DNA of 39,389 bases from an uncultured Synechococcus sp. (GTDB lineage Bacteria; Cyanobacteriota; Cyanobacteriia; Phormidesmidales; Phormidesmidaceae): positions 1 to 39,389 of the forward strand of contig CALDSK010000140.1 in the NCBI GenBank assembly GCA_937911865.1, given 5' to 3'. Shown piece after piece: positions 2,111-34,028 of the stretch. The stretch's first letter is position 1, and each line of letters starts with the position of its first letter. The notes beneath the pieces were generated by a model. It made no database searches and was not told the DNA's origin. It was given only the letters and a program-made list of their open reading frames with translations. The translations under genes were made by a program, and so were the position numbers.

Positions 2111-2122
2111 AAAGGATAGGGC

Positions 2123-12935: not shown

Positions 12936-13448
12936 ATGCTAGCTGTTGCTCTCGTCTCTTTTGTTCATCGCCCCAAACCAATGTCTATTTTTTTATCTCG
13001 CTCATTAGCGCGTCCGCCCGTTCGTTTCAGACTGGCTCACACGGTGCTTGCTGTGCTGGCCTGCGGTCTGTGTTTATTTAGCACAACGTTTGGTTTGAGT
13101 GCGATCGCTCATCAGCTCAACCAAAGCTATCTCTATTTGCAAATCGGTGAGTCGTCTATTACCGCGAGAGCTGAGCTACCGATTCAAGATTTAAACAAGG
13201 TGCTAGAGCTGGGCTTTGACCCAGACAAAAGAATAAGCCCCGAGCAAATAGCGCCGCACTTGGAGGATATAAAAGCCTACGTTGCAGCGCATACGGCGCT
13301 CGACTGTGCCCCCCAAACCTGCTCACTGTCGTTTACTGAAGTTGATTATCTCAACACCTATCAGTCACAGTATTTACTGCTGAACTATGATTTGGACGGC
13401 TTTGAGCAGCTGCCTGAATCACTAGAAGCAACCTATGATGTGATGTAG
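12936..13448 (+). CDS. N-terminal (signal peptide plus periplasmic) part of a HupE/UreJ_2-like membrane protein, ended by an in-frame TAG
   Basis: Signal-like VLAVLACGLCLFSTTFGLSAIAH. The ORF ends at TAG 13446-13448 and the next ORF (13473) is in the same frame. An alternative start is the ATG at 12981 (MSIFLSRS...). Confidence 0.6.
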   Translation: MLAVALVSFVHRPKPMSIFLSRSLARPPVRFRLAHTVLAVLACGLCLFSTTFGLSAIAHQLNQSYLYLQIGESSITARAELPIQDLNKVLELGFDPDKRISPEQIAPHLEDIKAYVAAHTALDCAPQTCSLSFTEVDYLNTYQSQYLLLNYDLDGFEQLPESLEATYDVM

Positions 13449-13472
13449 GCCGAACTGCCGCAGACCACCAAT

Positions 13473-14228
13473 ATGCAGCTGAATGAGGAGAACTGGATGC
13501 CAGAAACCTTAGGCAATGCATCCAGCGCGCTGTTGATATTCGATAATGCCGGCGATGTGCGATCGCTAGACCTTGCTTCCGGCAGCTTGCTTCAAGGCTT
13601 TTGGGGGGTTGTTAAGCTCGGTGTGAAGCACATTGTAGAAGGCATCGATCACGTTTTATTTTTGGTTGCTTTACTCCTCCCCTCAGTGCTACGCCGTAAA
13701 GAAAGCAGCGCTTGGCAACCTGTGGATAGCTTCTCTACCGCGTTTATTTATATTCTCAAGATTGTAACGGCCTTTACGGTCGCTCACAGCATTACCCTTT
13801 GCCTGGCGACTTTGCAGATTGTGTCGGTGCCGTCTCGGGTGGTGGAATCAATTATTGCGGCTTCTATTGGCCTGGCTGCGCTGGAAATCTTTTATCCTAT
13901 TTTCAAGGGAAGAGCCTGGCTAATTATCTTTTTGTTTGGTCTGTTTCACGGCTTTGGTTTTGCCGATGTACTCGGTGAACTAGGCGTTACCAGTCAGCAT
14001 ACGGCGCTCTCCTTATTTGGTTTCAACTTGGGCGTAGAGCTTGGTCAGATAGCGATAATCGCGGTCGTGTTTCCGATACTGTATCTGGTGCGCACTCAGC
14101 GATTCTATTCTTCTTTTGTGCTGAAGACGGGAGGACTGCTGCTAGGGGCGATATCTTTATACTGGTTCATTGAGCGAGCGTTTGACATCAATATTCGATT
14201 TTTGCCTTTGCTACAGGGCCTGTTTTAG
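13473..14228 (+). CDS. Membrane part of the same HupE/UreJ_2-like protein
   Basis: GVKHIVEGIDHVLFLVALLLP matches the HupE/UreJ H-x4-G-x-DH-x-LF motif. Five or six hydrophobic helices follow (FGLFHGFGFADVL...GVELGQIAI). Codons 13449-13472 upstream are open and in frame with 12936..13448. Confidence 0.7.
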   Translation: MQLNEENWMPETLGNASSALLIFDNAGDVRSLDLASGSLLQGFWGVVKLGVKHIVEGIDHVLFLVALLLPSVLRRKESSAWQPVDSFSTAFIYILKIVTAFTVAHSITLCLATLQIVSVPSRVVESIIAASIGLAALEIFYPIFKGRAWLIIFLFGLFHGFGFADVLGELGVTSQHTALSLFGFNLGVELGQIAIIAVVFPILYLVRTQRFYSSFVLKTGGLLLGAISLYWFIERAFDINIRFLPLLQGLF

Positions 14229-14231
14229 ACC

Positions 14232-15368
14232 ATGGTTGCTTTATTCCAAGAATCGTCTCTTTCCCAAGATAGTGTTCCTCAAGAGAGCGTTCCTCAAGCC
14301 GGTGTTACTCGTCCGCGCCTTCGCACAAAGGTCCTCTCTGTCGAAGATATTCGACAGATTGTGGTGCATGTGGGGTTAGACGTCTTGATGGATGAGATGA
14401 TCGCCCGGCTTACAGAGGCGTTTGCTCAGTTTGACCCGTCGGAGACTGTTGTCCCCGTGCGCACTGGCTTTAGCTACGAACAGCCACAGGTGGGGCTAGT
14501 GGAGTGGATGCCCCTGTTTCAAAAGTATCAGCAGATTGTGGTGAAGGCTGTAGGCTACCATCCGCACAACCCTGATGTGCATCATTTGCCGACAGTGCTC
14601 TCTACGCTCTCAGCCTATGACCCAAGCTCTGGCCATTTGAGCGCGGTAATGGATGGCACTTTTTTGACGGCGCTAAGAACTGGGGCCGCGAGTGCGATCG
14701 CTAGTCAACATCTGGCGCTGCCCCATAGCAAAACACTGGGATTAATCGGTGCGGGCGCGCAGGCCGTAACGCAACTCCATGCCCTTTCTCGCTGTTTTGA
14801 GCTAGAGCGGGTGCTGATTTTTGACAGTGATTCAAAGGTAAGCGGTTCGTTTTCTGAGCGGATAGCAGGTTTGGGATTAGAGACTTTAGTCTTTCAGCAG
14901 GCCACTGTTTCTGAGATAGTCGCGGCGGCAGATATTGTGTGTACGGCTACTTCGGTAGAGGTTGGTGCTGGGCCTGTTTTCGATGACCATAGTTTACAGC
15001 CCTGGCTACATGTGAACGCGGTGGGGGCTGATTTTCCGGGTAAGTTTGAGCTGCCACTTAGCCTGTTGCAGCGTGGTTTTGTTTGTCCTGATTTTAGGGC
15101 GCAGGCGATCTTAGAAGGCGAATGTCAGCAGCTGACAGAAAGAGGAGAGATTGGCCCGGAGCTATCGGCAGTGGTGAAGCGGCCCGAACAATACCAGGAG
15201 AAACAACAGCAGCTGACGGTGTTTGATTCGACCGGGTTTGCGTTGGAGGATCAAGTCGCGATGAACATGATGCTGGACTATGCTAAAGCCTTAGATGTGG
15301 GCTCGTGGATGAGTTTAGAGAGCGCGGCTGCGGATGTGAAAAATCCCTATAGCTTTTTGTCCCTGTAG
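14232..15368 (+). CDS. Ornithine cyclodeaminase / mu-crystallin family enzyme (probable L-proline or pipecolate supplier)
   Basis: FLTALRTGAASAIASQHLA and the Rossmann segment LGLIGAGAQAVTQLHAL are OCD-family hallmarks. The N-terminal 30 aa include a 15-nt x3 repeat (QDSVP/QESVP/QAGVT). Confidence 0.8.
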   Translation: MVALFQESSLSQDSVPQESVPQAGVTRPRLRTKVLSVEDIRQIVVHVGLDVLMDEMIARLTEAFAQFDPSETVVPVRTGFSYEQPQVGLVEWMPLFQKYQQIVVKAVGYHPHNPDVHHLPTVLSTLSAYDPSSGHLSAVMDGTFLTALRTGAASAIASQHLALPHSKTLGLIGAGAQAVTQLHALSRCFELERVLIFDSDSKVSGSFSERIAGLGLETLVFQQATVSEIVAAADIVCTATSVEVGAGPVFDDHSLQPWLHVNAVGADFPGKFELPLSLLQRGFVCPDFRAQAILEGECQQLTERGEIGPELSAVVKRPEQYQEKQQQLTVFDSTGFALEDQVAMNMMLDYAKALDVGSWMSLESAAADVKNPYSFLSL

Positions 15369-15400
15369 CTTTTTGTGGTTGTAATTTTACTAGCACCCTA

Positions 15401-15462
15401 AAGAGAAGCCAGAGAGAAAACAAAGAAGCCAAAGAGAAAACAGCGAAGGAGCCGGAGAGAGA
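15401..15462. repeat. Purine-rich tandem repeat of about 20-21 nt x3 filling the OCD-ACAD spacer
   Basis: The units are AAGAGAAGCCAGAGAGAAAAC, AAAGAAGCCAAAGAGAAAAC and AGCGAAGGAGCCGGAGAGAGAA. The last unit supplies the GGAG Shine-Dalgarno for the ATG at 15463. Confidence 0.75.
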
Positions 15463-16614
15463 ATGGAATTTGCTTGGTCAGAAGAACAGCTTGCCTTTAA
15501 ACAGCGCGTGGTGGAGTTTGCGAAAAACACGCTAGATAGTGACGATATGGTTGAGCGTGACTATCACGGCAAGTTCTCTTGGGAGAATTGGAAAAAGTGC
15601 GCTGACTTTGGCATTCAAGGCATGTGTATGCCCGCAGAATACAGCGGCTCTCCGGCGCTGGACATTATGACGGCGGTGCTAGGGATGGAGGCAATCGGCT
15701 ATGGCTGTAAAGACAACGGCTTGACTCTAGCGCTGAATGCGCAGATGTGGACGGTACAGATTTTGCTCTCGCAGTTTGGGTCTGATGCTCAAAAGCAAAA
15801 ATATTTGCCACGCTTGTGCAACGGTGAGTGGATTGGCGTACATGCCCTTTCTGAGCCGGATTCGGGATCGGATGTGTATAGCCTAAAAACGTCTGCAGCC
15901 AAGTGCGATGGGGGCTATCTGCTCAACGGACGCAAGAAATTTGTGACCTGTGCGCCGATTTGCAACCTGGCACTGGTGTTTGCCACGATTGATCAGAGCT
16001 TGGGCAAGTGGGGGCTGAGCGTCTTTTTAGTGGAAAAAGACGCTCCTGGCTTTTCTACCGGGCCGGTAAAAGAGAAAATGGGCCTGCGCACCGCGCCCTT
16101 TGGAGAGATTTTCTTTGAAGATTGTTTTGTGCCAGAAGAGAACCGGCTAGGGCCTGAAGGGGCTGGCTTTAGCTTTTCTCATAGCTCGCTAGAGTACGAC
16201 CGCTGTTTTAACCTGGCCAGTGAGCTAGGGGCTATGGAGCGACAGCTAGAGCGCACGATTGAGTATGCGAAGTCCAGAGAGCAGTACGGTCAGCCGATTG
16301 GCAAGTTTCAGTCGGTGTCGAATCGGATTGCGGATATGAAGCTGCGGCTAGAGACCGCGCGGCTGCTGCTGTACAAGGTGGCCTGGCTAAAAGAGCGAGG
16401 TGAGCCAGCGATGATGGAGGCCGCGATGCTGAAGCTACATTTAAGTGAGTGCTACGTGGCCTCTGGATTAGACGCGGTGCGGATTCATGGCGGCAATGGA
16501 TATTTGACTGAGCATGAGGTAGAAAGAGACTTTCGCGATTCGGTAGGCGGCGTGATTTATGCGGGTACCTCAGACATTCAGCGAAATATTATTGCGCGCT
16601 CTTTAGGGTTGTAA
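15463..16614 (+). CDS. Acyl-CoA dehydrogenase-family flavoprotein, probably an aminoacyl/acyl-carrier-protein oxidase
   Basis: Full-length ACAD architecture (...ALSEPDSGSD...; ...FKQRVVEF...; C-terminal RIHGGNGYLTEHEVERDFRD...YAGTSDIQRNIIARSL). It is adjacent to a stand-alone A enzyme and a carrier protein. Confidence 0.85.
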   Translation: MEFAWSEEQLAFKQRVVEFAKNTLDSDDMVERDYHGKFSWENWKKCADFGIQGMCMPAEYSGSPALDIMTAVLGMEAIGYGCKDNGLTLALNAQMWTVQILLSQFGSDAQKQKYLPRLCNGEWIGVHALSEPDSGSDVYSLKTSAAKCDGGYLLNGRKKFVTCAPICNLALVFATIDQSLGKWGLSVFLVEKDAPGFSTGPVKEKMGLRTAPFGEIFFEDCFVPEENRLGPEGAGFSFSHSSLEYDRCFNLASELGAMERQLERTIEYAKSREQYGQPIGKFQSVSNRIADMKLRLETARLLLYKVAWLKERGEPAMMEAAMLKLHLSECYVASGLDAVRIHGGNGYLTEHEVERDFRDSVGGVIYAGTSDIQRNIIARSLGL

Positions 16615-16628
16615 GGGGGCGAGTGGTA

Positions 16629-18290
16629 ATGATCTATCTTCTATCTCAAATCTTGGATCGTTCGGCGTCGCGCTTTCCCGATCACGATGCCTTTCGCTGT
16701 GAGGGCGTGGGCCTGACCTACGCTGAGCTGTTGCAGCGAGCGAATGGGCTGGCGCAATGGCTGGTAGCGCACGGGGTGGAAAGGGGCGATCGCGTTGGCA
16801 TTTATTTGAACAAAAGTTTGGAGAGTGCGATCGCTGTCTACGGCATTTGGAAAGCTGGCGGGGCCTATGTTCCACTAGATCCAAATGCGCCGCTAGCCCG
16901 AACGGCCTATGCGATTAATCACTGTGAGATTCGATGTTTGATTACCTACAAGGGGCGGCGATCGCGCATTCTAGATCTTCTACAAGCTTCACCCACACTC
17001 TCTTGCATTGTTGGCTTACCAGATTCGTTTGAGCTAGATCAATCTGTCACGCGCTCTGTTACACGCTCTGTCACGCGCTGCGATTGGACCAATCTGCCCC
17101 TAAGTGACCAGGCTCCCAATGTGCGACTGATGGAACAAGACCTGGCGTACATTATGTATACCTCGGGTTCTACTGGCACGCCAAAGGGGATCATGCACAC
17201 CCACCGCAGTGGCCTAAACTATGCACAGATGGCCGCAGACACCTACAAGCTCACTCACAAAGATCGCCTGGGAAATCACTCGCCTCTGCACTTTGATATG
17301 TCTACGCTGGACTACTTTTCGGGCCCGTTGGTCGGTGCGACTACAGTAATCATCCCATCTGCCTATACAAAGCTACCCGCCAGCCTTTCACAGCTCGTGC
17401 AAGATGAGAGAATGACCATTTGGTATTCGGTTCCATTCGCGCTTATTCAGCTACTGCTGCGAGGTGCTATAGAGGAAAATGGTGAAGGAGAAAAAGAAAA
17501 GAGAGATTTATCTTCTTTACGCTGGGTACTGTTTGGCGGCGAGCCTTATCCCGCAAAGTATATGTACGGGCTAATGGAGAAGCTGCCCCAGGCGAGATTT
17601 AGCAATGTGTATGGCCCAGCGGAGATCAATCAGTGCAGCTATTACCACGTGCCGCCACTCGCTGACGGTGAACCGATGCCTGATCAGGTTGCGCCGATTG
17701 GCAAGATCTGGGCGAATGCTGAGGAGATTGTTGTCGATGATGACGATCGGCCAGTGTCTGTAGGGGAGATAGGCGAGCTGTTGGTGCGGACGCCGACGAT
17801 GATGCAGGGCTATTGGCGGCAGCCAGCGCTAAATGAGCGATGCTTTTACCGGACGGAGATTGCGAATCAGACAGCGGTGTTTTATCGGACGGGCGATCTG
17901 GTGCAGGAAATTGATGGTAACTATCATTTTGTCGGTCGAAAAGATCGGCAAGTAAAGATACGAGGCTACCGAATAGAGCTAGATGAAATAGAAGCAGCCT
18001 TGGTCGCGCACGAACAGGTGGAGGAAGCCGCAGCGTATTCTGTGCCGTCTGAGGTGGGAAGCGTGCGAGTAGAGGCAGCGGTGATTTTGAAGTCAGAGGT
18101 GACGCTAGCAAAGGAAGATTTGATGGCGTTTATAGCCGATAGATTGCCGAGCTATGCAATGCCTCAGCAGCTAGAGATTGTCTCTGTGTTCCCCAGAACA
18201 GGGACAGGAAAGATTGACCGGCGACTGTTGCAAAAGCGGGCAGTGGACAGCTATCGCGTAGCGATCTCGGAGGCTTACTCGGTTCAATGA
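16629..18290 (+). CDS. Stand-alone adenylation enzyme (AMP-dependent ligase, NRPS A-domain type)
   Basis: Motifs A3 YIMYTSGSTGTPKG, A5 NVYGPAE, A7 YRTGDL, A8 GRKDRQVKIRGYRIELDEIE and A10 PRTGTGKIDR are present. The ORF-track start is GTG 16623; ATG 16629 follows a G-rich stretch. It contains a 12-nt x3 in-frame repeat (SVTR)3 at 17043-17078. Confidence 0.85.
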   Translation: MIYLLSQILDRSASRFPDHDAFRCEGVGLTYAELLQRANGLAQWLVAHGVERGDRVGIYLNKSLESAIAVYGIWKAGGAYVPLDPNAPLARTAYAINHCEIRCLITYKGRRSRILDLLQASPTLSCIVGLPDSFELDQSVTRSVTRSVTRCDWTNLPLSDQAPNVRLMEQDLAYIMYTSGSTGTPKGIMHTHRSGLNYAQMAADTYKLTHKDRLGNHSPLHFDMSTLDYFSGPLVGATTVIIPSAYTKLPASLSQLVQDERMTIWYSVPFALIQLLLRGAIEENGEGEKEKRDLSSLRWVLFGGEPYPAKYMYGLMEKLPQARFSNVYGPAEINQCSYYHVPPLADGEPMPDQVAPIGKIWANAEEIVVDDDDRPVSVGEIGELLVRTPTMMQGYWRQPALNERCFYRTEIANQTAVFYRTGDLVQEIDGNYHFVGRKDRQVKIRGYRIELDEIEAALVAHEQVEEAAAYSVPSEVGSVRVEAAVILKSEVTLAKEDLMAFIADRLPSYAMPQQLEIVSVFPRTGTGKIDRRLLQKRAVDSYRVAISEAYSVQ

Positions 18291-18386
18291 CAAGATGTAG
18301 CTAAGACTCATATATTGATTGCCACAAATAGCCAAAAACTCTCTTTTCCCTTTTTCTAATCGATTTTTTAATCTCCTAACTTTCTC

Positions 18387-18626
18387 ATGGATAATCAAGA
18401 AATTCTGAAAAAATTTATCAGTGAAGATCTACTCAACAGTCGTCAGCGGGTTGAGGCGGATGACGATTTGCTTGGTGAAGAGATTATTGATTCTATGGGG
18501 GTTATGCGACTTGTGGCGTTTGTAGAAGAGACGTTCTCCTGCAAAGTTCCTCAGTCTGACATCACAATTACTAACTTTCGCACTATTAAGGCGATTGACA
18601 CCTATCTGGCCGCTAGGAGCCTGTAA
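18387..18626 (+). CDS. Stand-alone acyl/peptidyl carrier protein
   Basis: 79 aa with the phosphopantetheine-site context EEIIDSMGVMRLVAFVEE (DSxG-type Ser). Confidence 0.8.
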   Translation: MDNQEILKKFISEDLLNSRQRVEADDDLLGEEIIDSMGVMRLVAFVEETFSCKVPQSDITITNFRTIKAIDTYLAARSL

Positions 18627-18631: not shown

Positions 18632-20983
18632 ATGATGGCCGCTTCACCCTCTACCAGCTCTTCTACTACGTTGAATTCGCGATTTGATCTGACAACGGCG
18701 CAACGGCTGCTGTGGTTAGGGCAAAAGCTCGTGCCAGAATCGCCGCTGTACAATATGGCGTTTTTGTTTACGCTGGGCGGTAAGGTGGACGCTGGGCACT
18801 TTCAGGCCGCTTTTCAGGCGGTGGTAGACCGGAGCGATACGCTGCGGACCGTGATTGATGAAGCGAGTGGTACGGCCAAGCAGCAGGTGCTGCCACCCTT
18901 TGATTTTCGGCTGCTGGTTTTGGACTTTAGCGCGCAGGAGAATCCGGTGGCGGCGGCGCGTGACTGGGCTGAGGTGAGGGTGCGATCGCCTTTTGATCTG
19001 TCTCAGTGTTTATTTGATACCGCGCTGATTTATCTGGGTCAAAATCGGACCGTTTGGTATCTCAATCAGCACCATCTGATTACCGATATTTCATCGGTGA
19101 AGCAGCTGGTTGAAACGGTAGGAGAGTTCTATGCGCGATCGCTTTCTGGCACATTACAAACGGCTAATCCGCTAACCCCTTACGCTGCTCTCGATCTGCC
19201 TACCCCCTCTACTCGTTGTATTGACTACTGGCGAGCGTGTGAGCTGCAGCCAGTGGCCCTATATCATCGAAGCGCTGAGACTATTTCTGCTAGAACCCGG
19301 CGCGTGCACTGTGAGATAGATGAAAAGAGAACGGCAGCGCTAAAAGAACTGTCAATGCATTCATCGGCGGCGGCTTTGACACCTGCGCTTTCTCTTTTTA
19401 ATTTGGTGGCGGGGCTGCTGTTTGCCTATCTCTATCGGGTTAGTGTCCAAGGTCAGGGTCGTCAGCAGCTGGCGATCGCAACCCCTGCGCATGGTAGACC
19501 CACCAAGGCACTGAAAGAAACGCTGGGCGTGTTTATAGAGCTGTTCCCGCTATTAAGTGAGATAGAAGAATCGGAAACGTTTTCTTCTCTGCTAGCGAAG
19601 GTGCGCGAGGCGAGCGGTGCCCTTTTACGACATGCTGAGCCCGGTGCGAGTGAGTTTGCGCCGAGCCGAGATGTGAACGTGGTGCTAAATTTTATTCCTG
19701 CTCAGCTTTCAGATTTTGCGGGGATGTCGGTACGCTCTGAATGGATTCACGCTGGCGCAGGCGATCCGCGTCATCACCTGCGCTTGCAAGTGCATGATTT
19801 CGATGGGCGAGGACGATTGCAGCTGCACTTTGACCTGAACGAAGATTTATTTGAAAGAGAATTGCAAGACCGGGTGCCAACTCACTTTTTAGCGCTGGTA
19901 GATGCGGTGCTAGCAGATCCTGAGCAGCTGATTTCGAGCGTGGATTTGTTGGGAGATGAGGAGCGATCGCAGCTTGCAGCGCTAGGCTCTTGTAAACCCG
20001 TCAACGCCGACGTAACGGTGGTTGAGTCGTTTGAGCAGACGGTGCAACAGAATGCCAGTGTGACGGCTGTGATCTGTGGTGCTGAGTCGTTGACCTACGA
20101 ACAGCTGAACGCGCAGGTGAATCGACTGGCGAGCTATTTGCGATCGCAAGGTGTGAGTACAGAAATTCCGGTCGGTATTTGCCTGCGTCGCTCAACAGAG
20201 ATGCTGATTGCCGTACTGGCCGTGCTTAAAGCGGGCGGTGCCTACGTGCCTATTGAGCCGAGCCATCCGGTTGAAAGAATCTCCTATATTTTGGAAGATA
20301 TGCAGATTGGCTGGGTGCTGACACACTCTGCTTTAACCGACCGACTGATTGGGAAGGCGCAGCTGATTGCGTTAGATGCAATAGAGCTGAGCCACTGGTC
20401 TGACACCGACCTAGACAGCTCTCCGCAGCCGCAAAACCTTGCTTACTTACTGTACACATCTGGTTCTACCGGTCAGCCAAAAGGAGTCGCCGTTGAGCAC
20501 CGTAATTTAGCAAATTATGTGCAGTGGGCTATTTCAAAGTATGTCCGCGGACGACAGCTTTCGTTCCCGCTGTTTTCTCCGCTAGCCTTTGACCTAACGG
20601 TTACTTCTATCTTTGTGCCCTTGCTATCTGGCGGGCAGGTTGTTGTTTACCCCGATAGCGACGAGCCGCTCGATCTGTCTTTGCAGCGAATTGTTCAAGA
20701 GAATGCTGTGGATGTTATTAAGCTGACGCCTTCTCATTTGGCTTTGATCCAGGGTATGCGTTTGGGCTCTCGGCTGAAGACGTTGATATTAGGAGGGGAA
20801 GATCTAAAGTCTGCGCTGGCTAGTGCGATCGCCTCAAGCAGTCAACAGCCTTTAGAAATCTATAACGAGTACGGCCCCACGGAAGCAACGGTGGGCTGCA
20901 TGATTCATTCGTTTGACTCTGAAGATAAGGCCGCATCCGTCCCGATTGGTCAGCCTGCGGCGGGCTCAGAGATTTATTTGTAA
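18632..20983 (+). CDS. NRPS module 1, part 1: starter-type C domain plus A domain through motif A5, ended by an in-frame TAA
   Basis: The C domain has [14 protein letters not shown]...SPLYNM and HHLITDISS (19070). The A domain has [16 protein letters not shown] and [10 protein letters not shown]. The ORF stops at 20981-20983 inside the expected Y(L/V)LD...PVP segment. Confidence 0.85.
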   Translation: [783 protein letters not shown]

Positions 20984-21001: not shown

Positions 21002-24000
21002 GTGCCGCTAGGAGCGGTGGGAGAGATTTTTATTGGTGGGCCTGGGTTAGCGCGAGGCTATTTTAACCGGGATGAGCTAACGGCTGAGCGGTTTGTTGAT
21101 TGGCGAGGAAAACGCCTGTACCGAACGGGAGACTTGGGCCGATGGCGAGAAAGCGATCGGTGGCAAGAAAGCGTTTTGCTGTACCTAGGGCGAGGCGATC
21201 GCCAAGTGAAAATTCGCGGACACCGGGTGGAGCTAGGAGAGATTGAGGCGGCGGTAGCCGCGCATCCGCGGGTGAGTGCGAGCGCGGTAAGTGTGGTGCA
21301 TCCGGTACAGGTAGAGCCGCCGGTATCGCTAAGCTACTGTACGCGCTGTGGATTGGCGTCTAACTATCCTGGCGTGAGCTTTGATGCGGCAGGCGTGTGT
21401 GATGTGTGCCGCGCGTATGAAACCTATAAGAACAGGACCGAACAGTATTTTCGTGAGATGGATGGGCTGCGTTGTCGGCTGGAGACTGCCCGTGCGAAAA
21501 AGACAGGTGACTACGACTGTATGATGCTGCTCAGCGGTGGTAAAGACAGTACTTATGCCCTGGCTCAGCTGGTGCAAATGGGTTTGAAGGTTTTCGCCTT
21601 TACCCTGGATAATGGCTATATCTCTGACGGTGCGAAAGAGAACATTCGGCGAGTGGTAGAAGCGTTGACTGTAGATCACGTTTTTGGTACGACGCCTGCC
21701 ATGAACGAGATTTTTGTGGATAGCCTAGAGCGGCACTGTAACGTGTGTAATGGCTGCTTCAAGACCATCTATACGCTGAGTATGAAGATGGCCTACGACA
21801 TGGGCATTCCGGTGATTGTAACCGGGCTTTCAAGAGGGCAGTTTTTTGAAACTAGGCTGAGTGAAGAATGGTTTACAGAGCTGTTTGGTCAGCCAGAGTT
21901 TAACCCAGATACGATTGATGAAACGGTGCTAGAAGCGCGGAAGGTCTATCATCGCAGCGATGATGCGGTCTCTCAGCTGATGGACGTTGAGGTGTTTCAA
22001 TCGGATGATATTTTTGAGGCGATTGAGATTGTTGATTTTTATCGGTATTGCGATGTAAGGCTAGCAGAGATGATGGCTTTTTTGCGCGATCGCCTGCCCT
22101 GGATTCGCCCTGCCGACACGGGCCGCTCCACCAACTGTCTGATCAACAATGCGGGTATTTATGTGCATACGCAGCAGCGCGGCTATCACAACTATGCGCT
22201 GCCCTACAGCTGGGATGTGCGCATGGGGCATAAAACGGTTGACGAATGCATTGATGAACTCAATGACGAGATTAATGTCAGTGAAGTTAAGCAGATTTTG
22301 AAAGAGATTGGCTACGACGCCCAGCGAACGACAGAAGCACAGCTGGCTGCTTACTACTGCGCCGCAGATGAACTTTCAGCAGCAGAGCTAAGAACGTTTC
22401 TCTCGCAGCGCCTGCCAAGCAATTTGGTCCCGGCTTACTTTGTTCCTGTGGAGCAGATGCCGCTGACTAAAAACGGCAAGGTTGACTATGCGGCCTTGCC
22501 AGCGCCGCAGACCCGTCGCTCAGAATTGCAGGCCGACTATGTTGCCCCGCAGACCGCTACAGAGAAGCTTCTGGTAAAGCTGTGGCGACAGGTGCTGAAG
22601 GTCGATAGAATTGGCATTCACGACAACTTTTTTGATCTGGGTGGCGATTCAATTATGGCGATTCAGATTGCAGCGAGACTGTCGGAAGCAGGATTTGGAC
22701 TGTCGCCCAATCAGATTTTTCAATATTCAACAATTGCTGAGCTGGTTACGGTGATGATGCGTGAAAGCAGTCTGGAACCCGAAGACTTGACTGGCAACGT
22801 GCCGCTAACGCCGATTCAACAGACATTTTTTGAGCTGGAATCTCCCGAGCCTGAGCAATTTACACAAACCGTGCTTTTGACGGTTAGTGAGTCGCTAAAT
22901 TTTGATAGCTTACGCGCGGCCGTGAAGGCTCTGGTGGACTATCACGCCAGTTTGCGTTTGAGCTATCAACTCTGGAAAGGTCAGTGGCGTCAGCGCTATC
23001 AGCAGACGGTAGAGGCGGAGCAGGTTTCTTGGGTAAATCTGTCGGATGCTGCTGTGGCGGAGGAAGCGGTTGGTGATGCGATCGCTTCTCTGCAAACGCA
23101 GCTAAATCTAGCCGACGGTGATTTGTTACGAGTAGCGCTATTTGATTTAGGCGATGTTCAGCAGCTAGGCATTGTGATTCATCATTTAGCGGTAGACGCC
23201 GTGTCCTGGCTGACGCTGTTAAAGGATTTGGAAACTCTGTATCGGCAGATAAATGAGGGAGAAGACATTGCTCTGCCGCCGAAGACGAGCTCTTTTAAGG
23301 CTTGGGCAGAGGGGCTTACGAAGGTTGATCTAGACGCACAGGAGAAAGCGTATTGGGAGAATCTATTCTCTTTAGAAGAATCCGAAGAAGAAGCTGAGCA
23401 TCACCATTCAGGGGCTATCTTTGAGCAAGACAACTCGACCGGTAATGTGACCAGACAGCTAGATAAGCCAGCAACGCAGGCATTTTTACAGGACTCGAAC
23501 CGAGATCGCCCGCAAGAGAAACTGCTAGCGGCGCTAACGTTAGCGGCTACGCAGTTGTTTGATTGTTCCAGTATTCGCCTGGATATGGAAGGCCATGGAC
23601 GAGAAGATGCTTTAGTGCCAGGGGCTCGGCTGGTGAGAACAGTCGGGTGGTTTACGTCGCTGTTTCCGGTTGTGCTGACGGCTGAGCCTGATTCAGCTAG
23701 CACGTTGAGAGCGGTGAAAAAGACGCTACGCAGCATACCACAGCACGGCATTGGCTATGGCATACTGCGATATTTTGGCGATGAGGAGACACAGACTAAA
23801 TTAAGAGAGCAACCTGAGTCGAAGATTCTGTTTAACTATCTGGGCGATTTGGAACAGCTGCTGCCAGCTGGTTCGATGTTTTCGCTGGTAGCGCCTTTGC
23901 GGGTGTCGCGTAGCGCTTTACAGCAGCGATCGCACCCTATAGACATCAGCGCTTTTATTCTTGATGGTCAGCTGCAAATCGACTGGTGCTACAGCGGCGT

Positions 24001-24175
24001 CAAGGCTGAAACCGTTGAAAAGCTAGCTGACGACATGATGGCCCAGCTACAGCTGTTAGGGGCAGGCCCAACAGAAGCGCCGATTGCAGAAGACTTTCCG
24101 CTGGCGAATCTCGACAGTCAAAAGATGGACAAGCTATCCACTTTGCTCGGCCAGCTAGATGGGTTGGAGGATTAA
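21002..24175 (+). CDS. NRPS module 1, part 2: A6-A8, embedded PP-loop domain, A9-A10, PCP, epimerisation domain
   Basis: It is in the same frame as 18632..20983, and codons 20984-21001 are open. Motifs: [14 protein letters not shown] (A6), YRTGDL (A7), [20 protein letters not shown] (A8), insert, [25 protein letters not shown] (A9/A10), FFDLGGDS (PCP). E-domain motifs are [20 protein letters not shown] and EGHGRED. Confidence 0.85.
   Translation: [1057 protein letters not shown]
21302..22339 (+). other. Zinc-ribbon plus PP-loop ATP-pyrophosphatase domain (N-acetyl-sugar-amidotransferase-like) inserted between A8 and A9 of the module-1 A domain
   Basis: [24 protein letters not shown], then the PP-loop LLSGGKDS (21533-21550), a second Cys cluster CNVCNGC, and ...[13 protein letters not shown]...PYSWDVRMG. 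The insert is flanked by the A8 strand AVSVVH and the A9-proximal strand LAAYYC. Confidence 0.7.
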
Positions 24176-24178: not shown

Positions 24179-27034
24179 ATGAAAAACGTTGCTGATATTT
24201 ATCCGCTTTCGCCTGTACAGCTCGGTATGTTGTTTCATACGCTCGCCGAAGGTGAGCCCGAGTCGTCTGGCGTGTATGTGAACCAATATACCTGCGAGCT
24301 AAAGGGTGTACTACAGCTACCTTTGTTTCAGCAGGCCTGGCAGCAAACGATAGAGCGACATCCGGTGCTGCGAACGGCGTTTTTGTGGGAAGGGTTAGAC
24401 GAGCCGTTGCAGGTGGTGCGCCAGCAGGTGAACTTGCCCTGGCAGATGTTGGATTGGACGGGTGAAGAGAATTGGGAGAAGCGGATAGAAGCCTTTTTGA
24501 GCGGCGATCGCGCCAAGGGTTTTAACCTGGCTAAAGCGCCTCTGCTGCGACTAACCCTCATTCAGCGAAATGAAGAGATAATCCAACTGATATGGACTTC
24601 TCACCATATGCTATTTGACGGCTGGTCTTTGCCTTTGATTTGGCAAGATATGCTGGCGTACTATGAGGCTTTGCTAAAAGAGAGAACACCACAGCTAGAG
24701 CGCGTTAGGCCCTACCGGGACTATATTGCCTGGCAGCAAACCCAGAAGAAAGCAGACTCTGAACAGTTTTGGCGATCGCAGCTCGAAGGCTTTACTGAGC
24801 CAACGCCTTTACCGGCTGTGCTAACAGCTGGGCATAAGGTTTTTCAAGATAAGGTCTCTCAGGGCTATCAACAACAGTCTAAACAGATAGAAATTAAGCC
24901 ACTGACCGAGTTCGCTAGGTCTCAAAGACTAACGCTAAATACGCTTGTGCAAGGGGCCTGGGCACTGCTGTTACATCACTACAGCAGCAAAGCGCAGGTG
25001 ATGTACGGTTCGGTGGTGTCTGGGCGACCTGCCGCGCTTCAGGGCGTTGAGAAGATGGTGGGACTGTTTATTAATACGCTGCCCGTGCTGGCCAGCATTG
25101 ATACCGAAAAATCTGTTGTCGATTGGCTGAAAGATTGTCAACAGCAGCAGCTTAGCCTGAGGGACTATGGAACGGCTGCGCTGAGTGATTTACAGCAGTG
25201 GAGTGATTTGCCAGCAGGTAGTTCACTGTTTGAAAGTATTGTCGTATTTGAAAATTATCCGACAGCAGAGGCCCCTGAGCTGGGGTTTACGGTAGAAAAT
25301 GCTCGCTACTTGGAGCAAAGCAATTACCCGCTGGCGCTGCTGGTTGTTCCGGGTGAATCCTTAGAGCTGATATTGCTACACGATGCGACGAGGTTTGAGC
25401 GTGGTGCGATCGCTCGCCTACTCGAACATCTAGAACTGTTGCTCACTGTATTTCTACAACAGCCCAACTCAAAACTCTCCAATTTGCCTCGACTAACGCT
25501 TACGGAACAACAAGAAATAGACAGCTGGCTACACGCCCATCATCAGAATTCGACGTCGTCGGGTTTACTGATTCATCACATGATTGAAGCGCAGGTCGTC
25601 AAGACACCAAACGCCGAAGCGGTTGTCTTCAACGGCAAATCTTTGACCTACGAAGAATTGAATCAACAGGCAAATCAGTTGGCCTACGAGCTGCGATCGC
25701 GTGGCGTTACCCCTGGCACCTTTGTAGCAGTGTGTCTTAACCGCTCCGTAGACATGGTGGTGTGCACTTTAGCCATTCTCAAAGCGGGCGGTACCTATGT
25801 ACCTCTAGATCCGACCTATCCTGCAGAGCGACTTGCCTATTGCCTGCAAGACACCGCCCCAAAAATAATCTGCACCGACCGTTCTGTTAATGTGCCTTCT
25901 GAGTCGATTCCTTGTCTTTTTGTCGATGACCCTACCCTCTACACTCATCCAATAGAAAACCTGCCAAATCTGTCGCAGTCTAGCGACCTAGCGTATGTAA
26001 TCTACACCTCGGGCTCCACCGGTCAGCCCAAAGGGGTAATGGTGACCCATCAGAACCTAGTAGCCTCTACAGAAGCGCGGTTTACGGTTTATCCAAACAG
26101 CGTTGAGCGCTTTCTTTTACTGTCTTCTATTGCGTTCGATAGTTCTGTTGCTGGTCTGTTTTGGGCATTGTGCCAGGGTGGAGCGCTGGTTGTTGCGCCT
26201 GAGCGCATTGAGCAAGATTTACATCAGCTGTCTAACTTGATAGAAAAAGAGAGAATTACGCATACGCTTTGCGTACCCACGCTTTACGGCTTGCTGATAT
26301 CACAGAATACCCTGACTCAGCTTTCGACCTTGAAAACGGTAATCGTGGCGGGTGAAGCCTGCACTAGGGCTTTAGCCGTGCGGCATTATGCAAAGCTGCC
26401 GCAGGTAGTGCTATGGAATGAATATGGGCCCACAGAAACAACCGTATGGTGTACGGCCTACCGGGTTCCGCCTGCGTTATCGCCTGGACCTGTGGCGATT
26501 GGCTCAGCGATTCCGGGTGTGCGCATTTTGTTGTTGAATGAACAGCGCCGGATAGTGCCTGCTGGCGGTATTGGTGAAATTCACGTGTGTGGTGCTGGCG
26601 TGAGTCAGGGGTACTTGAATCAGCCGGAGCGGACGGAGCAGTCGTTTTTCGCGTCTGCTCAGCTGAGTGAGAAGGTCTTGTCTAAAACACCTTTCTCGCT
26701 GTATAAAACAGGAGATTTGGGGCGCTACAGGGCAGACGGTACGCTGGAATGGTTGGGGCGCTCAGACCGGCAGGTGAAGATTCGTGGGTATCGGATTGAG
26801 CTAGGAGAGATTGAGGAAGTGCTGCGATCGCAACCCAGCATCAAAGAAACCGTCGTCGTTGCTCGCACTACAGCTGCTGCTGCCGAGAGTGTTGCAAGTG
26901 GACGTGCTGAAAGTGGACGTGCTGAAAGTGGAAATGTTGAAAGTGGACGTGTTGAAAGTTTAGCGGAAGCTCTTCTATCCCTCCCGCCTGACGAGGCCGA
27001 GGCGCTTTTAAGTGCGGTTGAGGGAACGGGTTAG
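24179..27034 (+). CDS. NRPS module 2, part 1: C domain (follows an E domain, DCL-like) plus A domain that ends after motif A8
   Basis: The C domain has [13 protein letters not shown] and HHMLFDGW (24602). The A domain has A3 [14 protein letters not shown], A5 [10 protein letters not shown], A6 [14 protein letters not shown], A7 YKTGDL and A8 [20 protein letters not shown], then [9 protein letters not shown]. A (SGRAE)-type repeat and a short acidic helix precede the TAG stop. A9, A10 and a PCP are absent. Confidence 0.85.
   Translation: [951 protein letters not shown]
26897..26956 (+). repeat. In-frame 15-nt tandem repeat x4 (AGTGGACGTGCTGAA and variants; [20 protein letters not shown]) in the C-terminal tail of NRPS 24179..27034
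   Basis: Four adjacent units at 26897, 26912, 26927 and 26942, read directly. Confidence 0.9.
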
Positions 27035-27036
27035 CT

Positions 27037-28431
27037 ATGGCGCATATTGTTTGCATTACGGGTGGGCTAACAGGGATTTTTAACGCGAGTCTGGCGCTGG
27101 TGGAGCAGCTGGTGCAAGCGGGTCACCGGGTCACCTACGCAAGCCCGGCAGATTGGCGGGCTGCGGTAGAAGCCGAAAGCTTTGAGACTAAAAAGATTGA
27201 ATATGTGCAGCTAGATGAGTGGGTGATTCAGTTTGCAGAACCGCCTATGAGTCGTTGGGAGAAGCTGAAGAAGATGCGATCGCGACAGCAGTCAGCGGTT
27301 GCTGCTTTGGGCGTGCAGAATTTTGTAAGTACGATGCGATCGCTCTCTCCAGACCTGATATTAATCGATATTGAAATGCATCCGCATATCATGGCGGCTG
27401 TTAGTGCGGGGCTACCGGTTGCTTCGCTGTGTCAATTTTTGTCTGTGTGGCATCGGCCCAATCTACCGCCGACTCATACAGGGACTATTCCTGGTGTTGG
27501 CTGGAGAGGCCATCGGCTCGGTATTGAGCTGAGCTGGCTACAATACAGCTGGCAAAAGTGGAAAACTGCCCAACGCGAACGATGGCAGCGTATGGGCGTC
27601 GATCGAATTTCTGTGCTGCGCTGCTACGCCAAACAGCTGAAGCATCCCTTTTGCGAACAGTTTGGATTCTCTCAGTGGTTAGTGCCCTACCCTCACCGAA
27701 ATCTTCCCGTCCTTTGCCTTAACGCCAGTGAACTAGACTTTCCTCACAGTCTTCATCCCTGTATGAAATATGTTGGCGCGATGGTGAAAGAGAATCGAAA
27801 AGCGGTTCAGCTATCACCCATCGTTCGAGCTGAAGTAGAACAGCTGCTGAAAAAACGACAGCCAGGCCGACCGCTGATTTACTGCGGCTGTAGTACCTTT
27901 ATTAAAGGGAATAAGAGATTTCTGCTACAGCTGATAAAAGCTGTTGAGCAGCAGCCAGACTGGGACCTGGTTTTAGGCCTGGGTGGTCAGCTAGATCCGG
28001 GTGAGCTAGGTGAGCTGCCTGGTAATGTACGTGTGTTTGATTGGGTGCCGCAAATGATGCTTTTGCAGCAGGCCAGCTGTGCGATCAACAACGGGGGCAT
28101 TAACAGTATTAACGAATGCCTGCACCTTGGGGTGCCCATGCTGGTGTACTCGCTCAAACGCTATGACCAGAACGGTAACGCGGCCAGGGTGAGTTATCAC
28201 GGATTAGGGATAGCAGGTGATTTTGAGCAGGACAGCGCAGGGCAGATTCGACAGCATTTGCAGCGGCTGCTGAGTGAAGAACGGTATCGGCAGGCGGCGG
28301 AGAATATGCGCGATCGCTACCACCAATACCACCGTGAGCAACGAGCCGTTCGATGTGTAGAAGAGTTGCTGAAAAGTGCTCGGCTGCAAGATAACAAGCA
28401 TCAGGAGGCCAGTCAGCATGTCTCAGCCTAG
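27037..28431 (+). CDS. GT1-family (MGT/UDP-glycosyltransferase-like) glycosyltransferase
   Basis: C-terminal nucleotide-sugar motif VPQMMLLQQASCAINNGGINSINECLHLGVPMLVYSLKRYDQNGNAARV. The N-terminal IVCITGG...LVEQLVQAGHRVTYASP fits. The start lies 2 nt after the NRPS stop. Confidence 0.8.
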   Translation: MAHIVCITGGLTGIFNASLALVEQLVQAGHRVTYASPADWRAAVEAESFETKKIEYVQLDEWVIQFAEPPMSRWEKLKKMRSRQQSAVAALGVQNFVSTMRSLSPDLILIDIEMHPHIMAAVSAGLPVASLCQFLSVWHRPNLPPTHTGTIPGVGWRGHRLGIELSWLQYSWQKWKTAQRERWQRMGVDRISVLRCYAKQLKHPFCEQFGFSQWLVPYPHRNLPVLCLNASELDFPHSLHPCMKYVGAMVKENRKAVQLSPIVRAEVEQLLKKRQPGRPLIYCGCSTFIKGNKRFLLQLIKAVEQQPDWDLVLGLGGQLDPGELGELPGNVRVFDWVPQMMLLQQASCAINNGGINSINECLHLGVPMLVYSLKRYDQNGNAARVSYHGLGIAGDFEQDSAGQIRQHLQRLLSEERYRQAAENMRDRYHQYHREQRAVRCVEELLKSARLQDNKHQEASQHVSA

Positions 28432-33936: not shown

Positions 33937-34028
33937 ATAAACTGTTCTTGAAGTGTGACCGGAATGTATGCCGTACAGCGTGGTGTGACTGTAAGCTAGG
34001 TTTTTTGCTGAAAGACCCCCTCTTTGCT

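What the first reader, a model, noticed from the sequence alone, without database searches (positions are those of the whole stretch)
21302..22339. Interrupted A domain carrying a zinc-ribbon PP-loop ATPase (N-acetyl-sugar-amidotransferase-like) domain
Within module 1 about 346 aa are inserted between the A8 strand (…AVSVVH) and the A9-proximal strand (LAAYYC…LPSNLVPAYFVPVEQMPLTKNGKVD).

The insert starts with CTRCGLASNYPGVSFDAAGVCDVC, the Cys-x2-Cys…FD..GVC..C ribbon typical of the WbpG/WbuX-type LPS N-acetyl-sugar amidotransferase family. It then has a canonical PP-loop SGGKDS and a CNVCNGC cluster.

Embedded domains described so far in interrupted A domains are methyltransferases, ketoreductases, oxidases and monooxygenases. 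I am not aware of a PP-loop adenine-nucleotide alpha-hydrolase among them.

PP-loop enzymes activate a carbonyl or carboxylate by adenylylation before N or S transfer. The domain could therefore amidate a side-chain carboxylate, form an amidine, or thioamidate the tethered intermediate. The thioamide synthetase of closthioamide biosynthesis is also a PP-loop enzyme acting on carrier-bound substrates.
Basis: partly seen in the sequence, partly recalled or inferred. Interest (0 to 1): 0.85.

Follow-up and report, generated by a model that had tools for sequence, protein, structure and literature searches.

The report
Fe-S PP-loop domain inside adenylation domain
An asparagine-loading module of a peptide-assembly enzyme carries, nested inside its adenylation domain, a complete zinc-ribbon PP-loop ATPase related to the sugar amidotransferases and the closthioamide thioamide synthetase; I found no description of this domain combination, which occurs in several hundred species, and it most likely converts an amide of the tethered asparagine into a thioamide.

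Summary
Window 21302-22339 (residues 101-446 of ORF 21002-24175) is a complete ~335-aa PP-loop domain nested in the a8/a9 loop of an NRPS adenylation domain. It matches TIGR03573/WbuX at E 2.4e-34, but below that model's cutoff. Its AF2 model (pLDDT 90) best matches the Legionella N-acetyl-sugar amidotransferase structure 8wex.

It is equally related to CtaC, the [4Fe-4S]-dependent thioamide synthetase of closthioamide. The three Fe-S ligand cysteines of CtaC align with three cysteines that are invariant in 146/146 embedded domains. They are absent from 7 of 8 annotated sugar amidotransferases.

The host A domain always carries an Asn code (137/137). The module occurs in at least 538 species genomes of about nine phyla. 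It usually sits beside genes for a proline-derived pyrrolyl starter, a HupE/UreJ transporter and a TonB receptor, which suggests a metallophore.

Best reading: a cis-acting, ATP-dependent amide-activating domain that most likely thioamidates carrier-bound Asn. Amidine or nitrile formation are not excluded.

No paper found describes this architecture. In this window the A domain is cut by an in-frame TAA 107 codons upstream, so this copy may be inactive.

The parts
18632..20983 (+). N-terminal part of module 1: condensation domain plus A-domain core (A1 to about A6), ending at an in-frame TAA
   Evidence: Pfam Condensation 19-448 and AMP-binding 467-783. Same reading frame as ORF 21002.
20981..20983 (+). 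In-frame TAA stop inside the A core (…SEIYL*DKALNRVPLGAVGEIFIGG…)
   Evidence: Sequence read. The closest relatives L003 and L004 have CTA/CTG (Leu) here. The same TAA is present in the public metagenome contig L083.
21002..21301 (+). A-domain motifs A7 and A8 and the first strand of the C-terminal subdomain (…SASAVSVVH)
   Evidence: NCBIfam TIGR01733 AA-adenyl-dom matches residues 1-96.
21302..22339 (+). Nested PP-loop (AANH) domain of the NASAT/CtaC clade; core about 21326-22327
   Evidence: TIGR03573 at E 2.4e-34. AF2 model pLDDT 89.9, pTM 0.90. Foldseek best hit 8wex, E 1e-11. BLASTP to CtaC E 5e-12.
21338..21409 (+). Tetracysteine zinc ribbon CTRC…GVCDVC
   Evidence: Matches the NASAT motif CXXCXn[GN]XCXXC, which binds Zn in 8wex. 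All four Cys are invariant in 146/146.
21533..21550 (+). PP-loop SGGKDS (ATP pyrophosphatase site)
   Evidence: Invariant in 146/146. Aligns with CtaC S73-S78; the D77A and S78A mutants of CtaC are inactive.
21746..21757 (+). CxxC (VCNGC): two of the three predicted [4Fe-4S] ligands
   Evidence: Invariant in 146/146. Aligns with CtaC C154/C157 and with the NrCynC of [4Fe-4S] LarE 8cnz.
22136..22138 (+). Third invariant Cys (DTGRSTNC): predicted third cluster ligand
   Evidence: Invariant in 146/146. Aligns with CtaC C284. The spacing from the CxxC is 127 residues in both proteins.
22340..22486 (+). Second strand of the A C-terminal subdomain, A9 and A10 (catalytic Lys in NGKVD)
   Evidence: Pfam AMP-binding_C profile positions 29-76 at residues 448-493. 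Coordinates.
22568..22750 (+). Carrier (T/PCP) domain with LGGDS serine, the presumed presenter of the substrate to the nested domain
   Evidence: Pfam PP-binding at residues 523-583. Serine located.
22796..24175 (+). Condensation-fold domain, probably an epimerisation domain
   Evidence: Pfam Condensation 599-1023. TIGR01720 matches 900-1045 above its cutoff. Assignment as an E domain is inference.
14232..18626 (+). Starter-unit cassette: ornithine cyclodeaminase, acyl-CoA dehydrogenase-like oxidase, free-standing A domain, small PCP (18387-18626). Predicted to give pyrrolyl-2-carboxyl-S-PCP.
   Evidence: Pfam hits. PCP called in L083 and translated. The same cassette accompanies the interrupted module across phyla.
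12936..14228 (+). HupE/UreJ-type metal transporter gene, split in the window by TAG at 13446-13448
   Evidence: Pfam HupE_UreJ_2. It is a single 430-aa gene in L083, where the codon is TTG. The family neighbours the module in 40/80 loci.

Best explanation
The insert is a catalytically intact adenine-nucleotide alpha-hydrolase (PP-loop) tailoring domain of the NASAT/CtaC clade. It is nested in the a8/a9 loop of an asparagine-specific adenylation domain.

Proposed mechanism:
1. The A domain loads Asn on the adjacent carrier domain.
2. The phosphopantetheine arm delivers the tethered Asn, free or already N-acylated by the upstream pyrrolyl unit, to the nested domain.
3. The PP-loop uses a second ATP to O-adenylylate an amide carbonyl. 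This is most likely the Asn side-chain carboxamide, the only amide common to all contexts in which the module occurs.
4. Sulfide held on the free iron of a [4Fe-4S] cluster displaces AMP and gives a thioamide. The cluster would be bound by the invariant CxxC…C triad.

In most genomes the module belongs to a small conserved cassette. It contains Orn-to-Pro conversion, a pyrrolyl-S-PCP starter, HupE/UreJ and a TonB-dependent receptor. This suggests a sulfur/nitrogen-donor metallophore.

Shown here: domain identity, insertion site, conservation, Asn code and gene context.

Inferred: Fe-S binding, sulfur as the nucleophile, which amide is modified, and the metallophore role.

In this particular window the gene carries an in-frame stop, so this copy may not make product.
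For: Domain identity:
- TIGR03573 E 2.4e-34.
- Confident AF2 model. Best structural match is the NASAT 8wex. Next come the sulfur-inserting PP-loop enzymes YcfA, [4Fe-4S] LarE and TtuA.

Link to CtaC:
- Full-length BLASTP alignment, E 5e-12. hhalign E 4e-21.
- CtaC C154/C157/C284 align with the three Cys that are invariant in 146/146 embedded domains. C154, C157 and C284 are the predicted Fe-S ligands of CtaC; their mutation impairs thioamidation. The CxxC-to-Cys spacing is 127 residues in both proteins.
- The triad is absent from 7 of 8 annotated sugar amidotransferases.
- It is present in the closest free-standing homologue, which sits next to an ACP gene in a thiotemplate cluster on a B. 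thuringiensis plasmid.
- CtaC works only on carrier-bound substrates and its cluster also lacks a sulfur-mobilising gene. Likewise no such gene, and no glutaminase gene, recurs beside the module.

Asn as substrate:
- The specificity code is DLTK[IVL]GE[VI][GA]K in 137/137. This set includes A(ins)-T proteins without a C domain that lie in polysaccharide loci.

Gene context:
- HupE 40/80, acyl-CoA dehydrogenase 38/80, PCP 27/80, OCD 26/80, TonB-dependent receptor 25/80.
Against: - No biochemical data exist for any member.
- The embedded family is no closer to CtaC than to the NASATs. hhalign gives 1.7e-25 to NASAT against 4e-21 to CtaC, and CtaC to NASAT is 5e-22. Homology alone therefore does not choose sulfur over nitrogen.
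- One annotated NASAT (Rhodobacteraceae SC52) lies beside hisH/hisF, which suggests ammonia supply. It also has the CxxC…C triad.
- I could not measure Cys-Cys distances in the model, because no coordinates are returned.
- The hosts are mostly aerobes, whereas CtaC homologues are mostly from anaerobes.
- Which amide is modified is unresolved.
- The window copy has a premature stop.
Confidence: 0.42

Rival explanations
1. NASAT-like amidine formation. The domain O-adenylylates an amide of the tethered (acyl-)Asn and a nitrogen nucleophile displaces AMP. With ammonia this gives an amidine. With an intramolecular nitrogen it gives a cyclic amidine, for example the Asn carboxamide N attacking the pyrrolyl amide to form a dihydropyrimidinone.
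For: - The best family and structure matches are the N-acetyl-sugar amidotransferases.
- One NASAT with hisH/hisF neighbours carries the same Cys triad.
- Some members sit in polysaccharide or nonulosonic-acid loci, as NASATs do.
- AsnB genes lie near divergent members.
Against: - The score is below the TIGR03573 cutoff (119 against 203 bits).
- No HisH/HisF-type or other glutaminase recurs next to the module. Six of the eight annotated plasmid NASATs examined have hisH/hisF beside them.
- The invariant three-Cys site is lacking in 7 of 8 NASATs.
- The cyclisation variant needs an upstream acyl amide, yet A(ins)-T proteins without a C domain keep the same domain and the same Asn code.
Confidence: 0.2
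2. QueC-like nitrile synthesis. The Asn side-chain carboxamide is O-adenylylated and AMP is eliminated, giving carrier-bound beta-cyanoalanine. No co-substrate is required.
For: - The Pfam QueC model hits the PP-loop region at about its gathering score.
- NCBI annotates the free-standing homologues as 7-cyano-7-deazaguanine synthase.
- QueC is among the structural matches.
- The invariant Asn specificity fits a primary-amide substrate.
- No nitrogen or sulfur donor gene is conserved nearby.
Against: - The QueC match covers only about 72 residues around the PP-loop.
- The fold and the full-length alignments are to NASAT and CtaC, not to QueC.
- Nitrile formation gives no role to the invariant CxxC…C triad.
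Confidence: 0.15
3. The feature is real, but this copy is a decaying pseudogene. The nonsense codon in the A core, and a second one in the transporter gene, mean that the cluster in this organism makes nothing, whatever the domain does elsewhere.
For: - TAA at 20981-20983, where relatives encode Leu. It is present in two independent assemblies.
- TAG at 13446-13448 in the HupE gene of the window only.
Against: - Apart from these two codons, the ORFs of the cluster are uninterrupted.
- The insert carries every family-invariant residue.
- The two assemblies differ at only 17 positions downstream of window position 12,500 (window 12,500-34,175).
- A single-base assembly or population variant cannot be excluded.
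- This rival concerns the window copy only, not the domain family.
Confidence: 0.5

Closest known systems
N-acetyl sugar amidotransferases (NASAT: WbuX, WbpG, LpNASAT; TIGR03573; PDB 8wex)
   Same: N-terminal tetracysteine zinc ribbon of the same pattern, SGGKDS PP-loop, overall fold (Foldseek E 1e-11, TM 0.58-0.61), and a profile match over the whole domain. Presumably the same first step: ATP-dependent activation of an amide oxygen.
   Different: - About 20% identity, and a score below the family cutoff.
- Nested in an NRPS A domain instead of free-standing.
- No HisH/HisF partner.
- Carries an invariant CxxC…C triad that 7 of 8 NASATs lack.
- The substrate is carrier-bound Asn, not a nucleotide sugar.
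CtaC, the [4Fe-4S]-dependent thioamide synthetase of closthioamide biosynthesis (PMC6772006)
   Same: Zinc finger, PP-loop and CxxC…C layout with identical 127-residue spacing. All three Fe-S ligand Cys align. CtaC acts only on carrier-protein-tethered substrates, which the fusion implies here too. Neither has a sulfur-mobilising gene in its cluster.
   Different: - 21% identity.
- CtaC is a free-standing protein in an NRPS-independent thiotemplated pathway of an anaerobe, and it thioamidates backbone beta-alanyl amides iteratively.
- The domain here is covalently nested in an Asn-specific A domain, is found mostly in aerobes, and probably acts once per cycle.
Interrupted adenylation domains with nested methyltransferase, oxidase, monooxygenase or reductase domains (e.g. 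TioS, IndC)
   Same: The insertion point is the same loop between core motifs a8 and a9. The A motifs are intact on both sides, and a carrier domain lies immediately downstream.
   Different: The nested domain belongs to a different superfamily (AANH/PP-loop) and consumes its own ATP. The review consulted does not list it among nested domain types.
Sulfur-inserting PP-loop enzymes TtuA/TtcA/Ncs6 and [4Fe-4S] LarE
   Same: PP-loop plus a three-Cys [4Fe-4S] site. HMMER aligns the CxxC of the insert with that of mmLarE 8cnz.
   Different: Their substrates are tRNA or a nicotinate nucleotide. The C-terminal halves differ, and structural similarity is only TM 0.3-0.4.
QueC (7-cyano-7-deazaguanine synthase)
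   Same: PP-loop ATPase that activates a carboxamide oxygen. There is a weak Pfam match, and free-standing homologues carry this annotation.
   Different: The match is limited to the nucleotide-binding N-terminus. The overall architecture is different.

Membership tests
NASAT (TIGR03573 / WbuX-WbpG) | PP-loop SGGXDS | tested here: met
   SGGKDS at 21533-21550; invariant in 146/146.
NASAT (TIGR03573 / WbuX-WbpG) | Tetracysteine motif CXXCXn[GN]XCXXC (Zn site in 8wex) | tested here: met
   CTRC-x16-GVCDVC; all four Cys invariant.
NASAT (TIGR03573 / WbuX-WbpG) | Score at or above the curated NCBIfam cutoff (203.2 bits) | tested here: not met
   119.3 bits, E 2.4e-34.
NASAT (TIGR03573 / WbuX-WbpG) | Fold of LpNASAT | tested here: met
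   Foldseek E 1.2e-11, TM 0.58-0.61. Best PDB hit.
NASAT (TIGR03573 / WbuX-WbpG) | Free-standing enzyme in a glycan cluster, typically with HisH/HisF-type ammonia supply | tested here: not met
   The domain is nested in an NRPS. No glutaminase is among the recurrent neighbours. NASAT controls do have hisH/hisF.
NASAT (TIGR03573 / WbuX-WbpG) | Converts an acetamido group to an acetamidino group | not testable with these tools
   Needs an enzyme assay.
CtaC-type Fe-S thioamide synthetase | PP-loop with the essential Asp and Ser (CtaC D77, S78) | tested here: met
   Aligned in BLASTP and hhalign.
CtaC-type Fe-S thioamide synthetase | CxxC…C [4Fe-4S] ligand triad (CtaC C154, C157, C284) | tested here: met
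   All three align. Invariant in 146/146. Spacing is 127 residues in both.
CtaC-type Fe-S thioamide synthetase | Specific sequence relationship to CtaC (closer than to other AANH clades) | tested here: inconclusive
   E 5e-12 and 21% identity. Profile scores to CtaC (4e-21) and NASAT (1.7e-25) are comparable.
CtaC-type Fe-S thioamide synthetase | Acts on carrier-protein-tethered substrate | tested here: inconclusive
   Implied by covalent nesting in an A-T module, and by the ACP neighbour of the closest free-standing homologue. Not demonstrated.
CtaC-type Fe-S thioamide synthetase | Binds a [4Fe-4S] cluster and replaces an amide O by S | not testable with these tools
   Needs anaerobic reconstitution and MS.
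Interrupted adenylation domain (a8/a9 type) | Auxiliary domain nested between core motifs a8 and a9 | tested here: met
   A8 at 21188-21247, insert 21302-22339, A9 at 22412-22441. Definition taken.
Interrupted adenylation domain (a8/a9 type) | Host A domain otherwise complete and in one reading frame | tested here: not met
   A7-A10 and the Asn code are intact, but an in-frame TAA at 20981-20983 splits the A core in this window. The homologous genes in L003 and L005 are continuous ORFs.
QueC nitrile synthase (PF06508) | Full-length match to the QueC profile | tested here: not met
   Only profile positions 2-73 of 210 match, at 22.3-22.7 bits against a cutoff of 22.

The most novel reading that the evidence does not exclude
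A previously unrecognised NRPS tailoring domain: a cis-acting, Fe-S-dependent thioamide synthetase nested in Asn-specific adenylation domains. It would make thio-asparagine-containing (pyrrolyl-capped) metallophores and glycan decorations in hundreds of mostly aerobic species across about nine phyla. This would be the first thioamide-forming domain of canonical NRPS assembly lines. It would greatly expand the set of known bacterial thioamidated nonribosomal peptides, which in 2019 consisted of closthioamide alone.
Probability: 0.35. Interest if true: 0.88.

Novelty: new variant of a known kind. Interest (0 to 1): 0.72.

Why it matters
Nested domains in adenylation domains are a short, well-catalogued list: methyltransferase, oxidase, monooxygenase and reductase. 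A PP-loop/AANH domain would add a new chemistry to that list, namely ATP-driven replacement or removal of an amide oxygen on the carrier-bound residue.

The module is not a curiosity. It is strictly conserved, always paired with an Asn code, and present in at least 538 species-representative genomes, including culturable Zobellia, Algoriphagus, Microvirga and Adonisia.

It defines an orphan cassette found in many phyla, with metal-transport genes beside it. It therefore points to an unknown family of small sulfur- or nitrogen-donor metallophores.

It also gives a direct bioinformatic handle and a simple MS experiment for finding thioamide (or amidine or nitrile) nonribosomal peptides outside anaerobes.

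Tried and rejected
Searches that led nowhere:
- A PDB profile search with the untrimmed alignment A1 was swamped by A and PCP hits. I repeated it with the trimmed A2.
- A search with an 81-aa LpNASAT fragment returned only short fragments. In both searches every listed hit was no longer than about 1.75 times the query, which suggests a length limit in that tool. I took full-length NASATs from annotated plasmids instead.
- The AF2 model returns no coordinates, so I could not measure clustering of the Cys triad.
- Literature searches for this architecture were all negative: interrupted A domain plus amidotransferase; PP-loop or AANH plus NRPS; NASAT plus nonribosomal; the HupE/OCD/ACAD cassette.

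Ideas considered and set aside:
- Heterocyclisation of the pyrrolyl amide with the Asn carboxamide into a dihydropyrimidinone: disfavoured, because A(ins)-T proteins lacking any C domain keep the domain and the Asn code.
- A dedicated sulfur or ammonia donor among neighbours: looked for, none recurrent.
- Altered genetic code or readthrough as an explanation of the TAA: no support. The gene caller on the public contig also stops there.
Full report
**1. What is in the sequence**

ORFs 18632-20983 and 21002-24175 lie in the same frame. Together they encode one NRPS module. Pfam finds Condensation and AMP-binding in the first ORF. In the second it finds AMP-binding_C (only profile positions 29-76), PP-binding and a second Condensation-fold domain.

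Translation and motif mapping give the following order:
- A7 YRTGD
- A8 GRGDRQVKIRGHRVELGEIE (21188-21247)
- strand SASAVSVVH (ending at 21301)
- 346 extra residues (21302-22339)
- LAAYYC, then A9 LPSNLVPAYF, A10 NGKVD and the carrier serine LGGDS

The insert therefore sits in the loop between core motifs a8 and a9. A 2022 review describes this loop as the usual insertion point for nested domains. It lists only methyltransferase, monooxygenase, oxidase and reductase activities as nested domains.

**2. What the insert is**

Sequence and structure matches:
- NCBIfam TIGR03573 (WbuX, N-acetyl sugar amidotransferase, NASAT) matches at E 2.4e-34 over profile positions 2-326 of 344. The score of 119 bits is below the curated 203-bit cutoff.
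- Pfam sees only the PP-loop region, through the QueC and ThiI models.
- An AlphaFold2 model built on 18 trimmed homologues is confident (pLDDT 89.9, pTM 0.90).
- Its best PDB match is the Legionella NASAT 8wex (E 1e-11, TM 0.58-0.61).
- The next matches are the sulfur-inserting PP-loop enzymes YcfA, [4Fe-4S] LarE (8cnz/8cp4) and TtuA, then AsnB and QueC.

The NASAT structure paper defines the family by SGGXDS and a Zn-binding CXXCXn[GN]XCXXC motif. Both are present here.

**3. Relation to CtaC**

The closthioamide paper (PMC6772006) shows the following for CtaC:
- It is an AANH enzyme with zinc, ATP and [4Fe-4S] sites.
- D77A and S78A abolish thioamidation. C154A, C157A and C284A diminish it.
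- It acts only on PCP-tethered substrates.
- Its cluster encodes no sulfur-mobilising enzyme.

I recovered the CtaC sequence (P0388, 355 aa, R. cellulolyticum) with a query stitched from the paper's cloning and mutagenesis primers.

BLASTP of the window insert against CtaC aligns both proteins end to end (21% identity, E 5e-12). The zinc ribbon, the PP-loop and the DNG[FY] motif are all matched. So is the CxxC (C154/C157 with VCNGC) and C284 with the Cys of DTGRSTNC. hhalign of the two families gives E 4e-21.

The CxxC-to-Cys distance is 127 residues in both proteins.

The embedded family is just as similar to NASATs (E 1.7e-25), and CtaC is too (E 5e-22). These are three sister groups of one clade, so similarity scores alone do not assign chemistry.

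The discriminating character is the Cys triad.
- Present in 146/146 embedded domains.
- Present in 3/3 CtaC-family proteins examined.
- Present in the closest free-standing homologue (32% identity). This gene lies directly after an ACP gene in a thiotemplate cluster on a B. thuringiensis plasmid.
- Present in a Streptomyces NRPS variant.
- Absent from 7 of 8 annotated NASATs.
- The exception is a Rhodobacteraceae NASAT flanked by hisH/hisF. It has the triad and is the main caveat.

The first is Cys in 12/146.

**4. How widespread it is, and in what company**

An exhaustive HMMER scan found 3244 cluster representatives at E<=1e-3 and 584 at E<=1e-30. The top 150 are almost all long NRPS proteins.
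- In 116 of the 146 representatives analysed, the insert starts after residue 830, which implies a C-A arrangement upstream.
- In 72 of 146, only A9/A10 and the carrier domain follow. C-A(ins)-T is therefore the commonest form.

They span Cyanobacteria, Bacteroidota, Actinomycetota, Acidobacteriota, Chloroflexota, Planctomycetota, Verrucomicrobiota, Gemmatimonadota and Pseudomonadota.

The window itself matches a public metagenome contig (L083). Its nearest genomes are Phormidesmis and Leptolyngbyaceae MAGs and Adonisia turfae.

The Stachelhaus code of the host A domain was read against GrsA. The code is DLTKIGEVGK in the window and DLTK[IVL]GE[VI][GA]K in 137/137 homologues. From established knowledge of specificity codes this is the Asn code; Asp has His at position 322.

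Recurrent neighbours in the 80 fetched loci:

| Neighbour | Loci (of 80) |
|---|---|
| HupE/UreJ-type transporter | 40 |
| Acyl-CoA dehydrogenase-like enzyme | 38 |
| Small PCP | 27 |
| Ornithine cyclodeaminase | 26 |
| TonB-dependent receptor | 25 |

Together with a free-standing A domain, this is the classical route Orn to Pro to prolyl-S-PCP to pyrrolyl-S-PCP. That reading is inference from the PltE/PltF and RedW/RedM precedents. The window has exactly this cassette at 14232-18626.

A second context exists. In Microvirga and Mesorhizobium the protein is A(ins)-T only, with no C domain. It sits among glycosyltransferase, polysaccharide-export, AsnB and thioesterase genes. A Saprospiraceae locus has NeuB and a UDP-GlcNAc 2-epimerase.

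No cysteine desulfurase, sulfur carrier or glutaminase recurs among the neighbours.

**5. Most likely mechanism**

Shown:
- A complete nested AANH domain under strong purifying selection (51 invariant positions across phyla).
- It is always in an Asn-specific A domain and always followed by a carrier domain.

Inferred:
- As in all AANH enzymes, the PP-loop adenylylates a carbonyl oxygen of the substrate and a nucleophile displaces AMP (general statement).
- The substrate is the carrier-bound Asn or acyl-Asn.
- The Asn code is kept in two unrelated pathway contexts, and some members have no upstream amide. The Asn side-chain carboxamide is therefore the most economical target.
- The invariant CtaC-type triad argues that the nucleophile is sulfide on a [4Fe-4S] cluster, giving a thioamide.

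Estimated probabilities:

| Reading | Probability |
|---|---|
| Thioamide | about 0.4 |
| Amidine (NASAT-like) | about 0.2 |
| Nitrile (QueC-like dehydration) | about 0.15 |
| Remainder | unknown |

The general statement, an active cis-acting amide- or carbonyl-activating tailoring domain, I hold at about 0.85.

A pyrrole nitrogen plus a thioamide or amidine donor set, with HupE and TonB-receptor genes alongside, suggests a metallophore for a soft metal such as Ni, Co or Cu. This is speculation from gene context.

**6. State of this copy**

The A core is interrupted by TAA at 20981-20983, within …SEIYL*DKALNRVPLGAVGEIFIGG…. The closest relatives have Leu codons there, CTA in L003 and CTG in L004. 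The homologous genes in L003 and L005 are single continuous ORFs. The same TAA is in the independent public contig.

The window also has TAG at 13446-13448 in the HupE gene, where the public contig has TTG.

Everything else is intact. This looks like either recent inactivation or a consensus error. It does not affect the reality of the domain family.

**7. Novelty**

None returned a paper that describes a PP-loop/AANH domain nested in an adenylation domain.

The CtaC paper noted free-standing homologues near NRPS genes, mostly in anaerobes, and no fused forms.

The library does not cover subscription-only papers, so prior description cannot be excluded.

I rate it a new variant of known kinds: an interrupted A domain combined with a NASAT/CtaC-type AANH enzyme.

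Noticed in passing
window 20981-20983: In-frame TAA splits the A core of module 1 into two ORFs. Relatives encode Leu (CTA/CTG). The same stop is present in the public contig L083.
   Followed up: yes
window 13446-13525: TAG at 13446-13448 splits the HupE/UreJ-like gene, which is a single 430-aa gene with TTG in L083. Nine of the 17 differences between the window and L083 cluster in 13447-13525, mostly A/T and C/A transversions. This may be an assembly problem or a hypervariable spot.
   Followed up: partly
window 24179-29400: The A domain of module 2 is split into two proteins at the same a8/a9 loop. ORF 24179-27034 ends after the first strand plus a helical tail. ORF 29221-33936 starts with a helical head and then the second strand (AMP-binding_C profile 27-76). 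A glycosyltransferase gene (27037-28431) and a Stf0-type sulfotransferase gene (28376-29221) lie between them. The same arrangement is seen in Crocosphaera L010 and in L009.
   Followed up: partly
window 29221-33936: The last NRPS protein reads (A-sub)-T-C-C-T-TE. It has two condensation-fold domains in tandem and a terminal C-T-TE module without its own A domain. A C-T-TE protein family recurs in 8 related loci.
   Followed up: no
window 33948-36172: A further glycosyltransferase (33948-35165) and a second sulfotransferase (35207-36172) follow the NRPS. The cyanobacterial product is therefore probably glycosylated and sulfated.
   Followed up: no
L069 8528-11500; L067 8510-11500 (Microvirga plasmid, Mesorhizobium): Free-standing A(ins)-T proteins of about 991-997 aa without a C domain. 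They are embedded in polysaccharide-type loci containing glycosyltransferases, Poly_export, AsnB, a TubC-docking thioesterase and a FemAB-like acyltransferase. This suggests transfer of the modified Asn to a glycan.
   Followed up: partly
L088 12001-12972 (B. thuringiensis HD1002 plasmid 1): Closest free-standing homologue (32% identity, annotated as QueC). It lies directly downstream of an ACP gene in a cluster with two adenylating enzymes, two PCPs, KS, FabZ, FabG, AsnB, a PPTase and a radical SAM gene. It has the zinc ribbon, the PP-loop and the Cys triad.
   Followed up: partly
L089 13062-17112 (Streptomyces sp. NBC_01216 plasmid): Variant in which the A core (618-aa protein) and a protein beginning with the PP-loop domain are separate genes, preceded by asnB. 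This is another split at the a8/a9 loop.
   Followed up: no
L087 2959-4164 (Rhodobacteraceae SC52 plasmid): An annotated N-acetyl sugar amidotransferase next to hisH/hisF that, unlike seven other NASATs, carries the CxxC…C triad (FCWHC … VEC). It is unexplained and relevant to what the triad does.
   Followed up: partly
window 162-6233: Two-partner-secretion genes (a ShlB/FhaC-type transporter at 162-2042 and a TPS-domain protein at 5181-6233 on the minus strand) lie upstream. They appear unrelated to the NRPS cluster.
   Followed up: no
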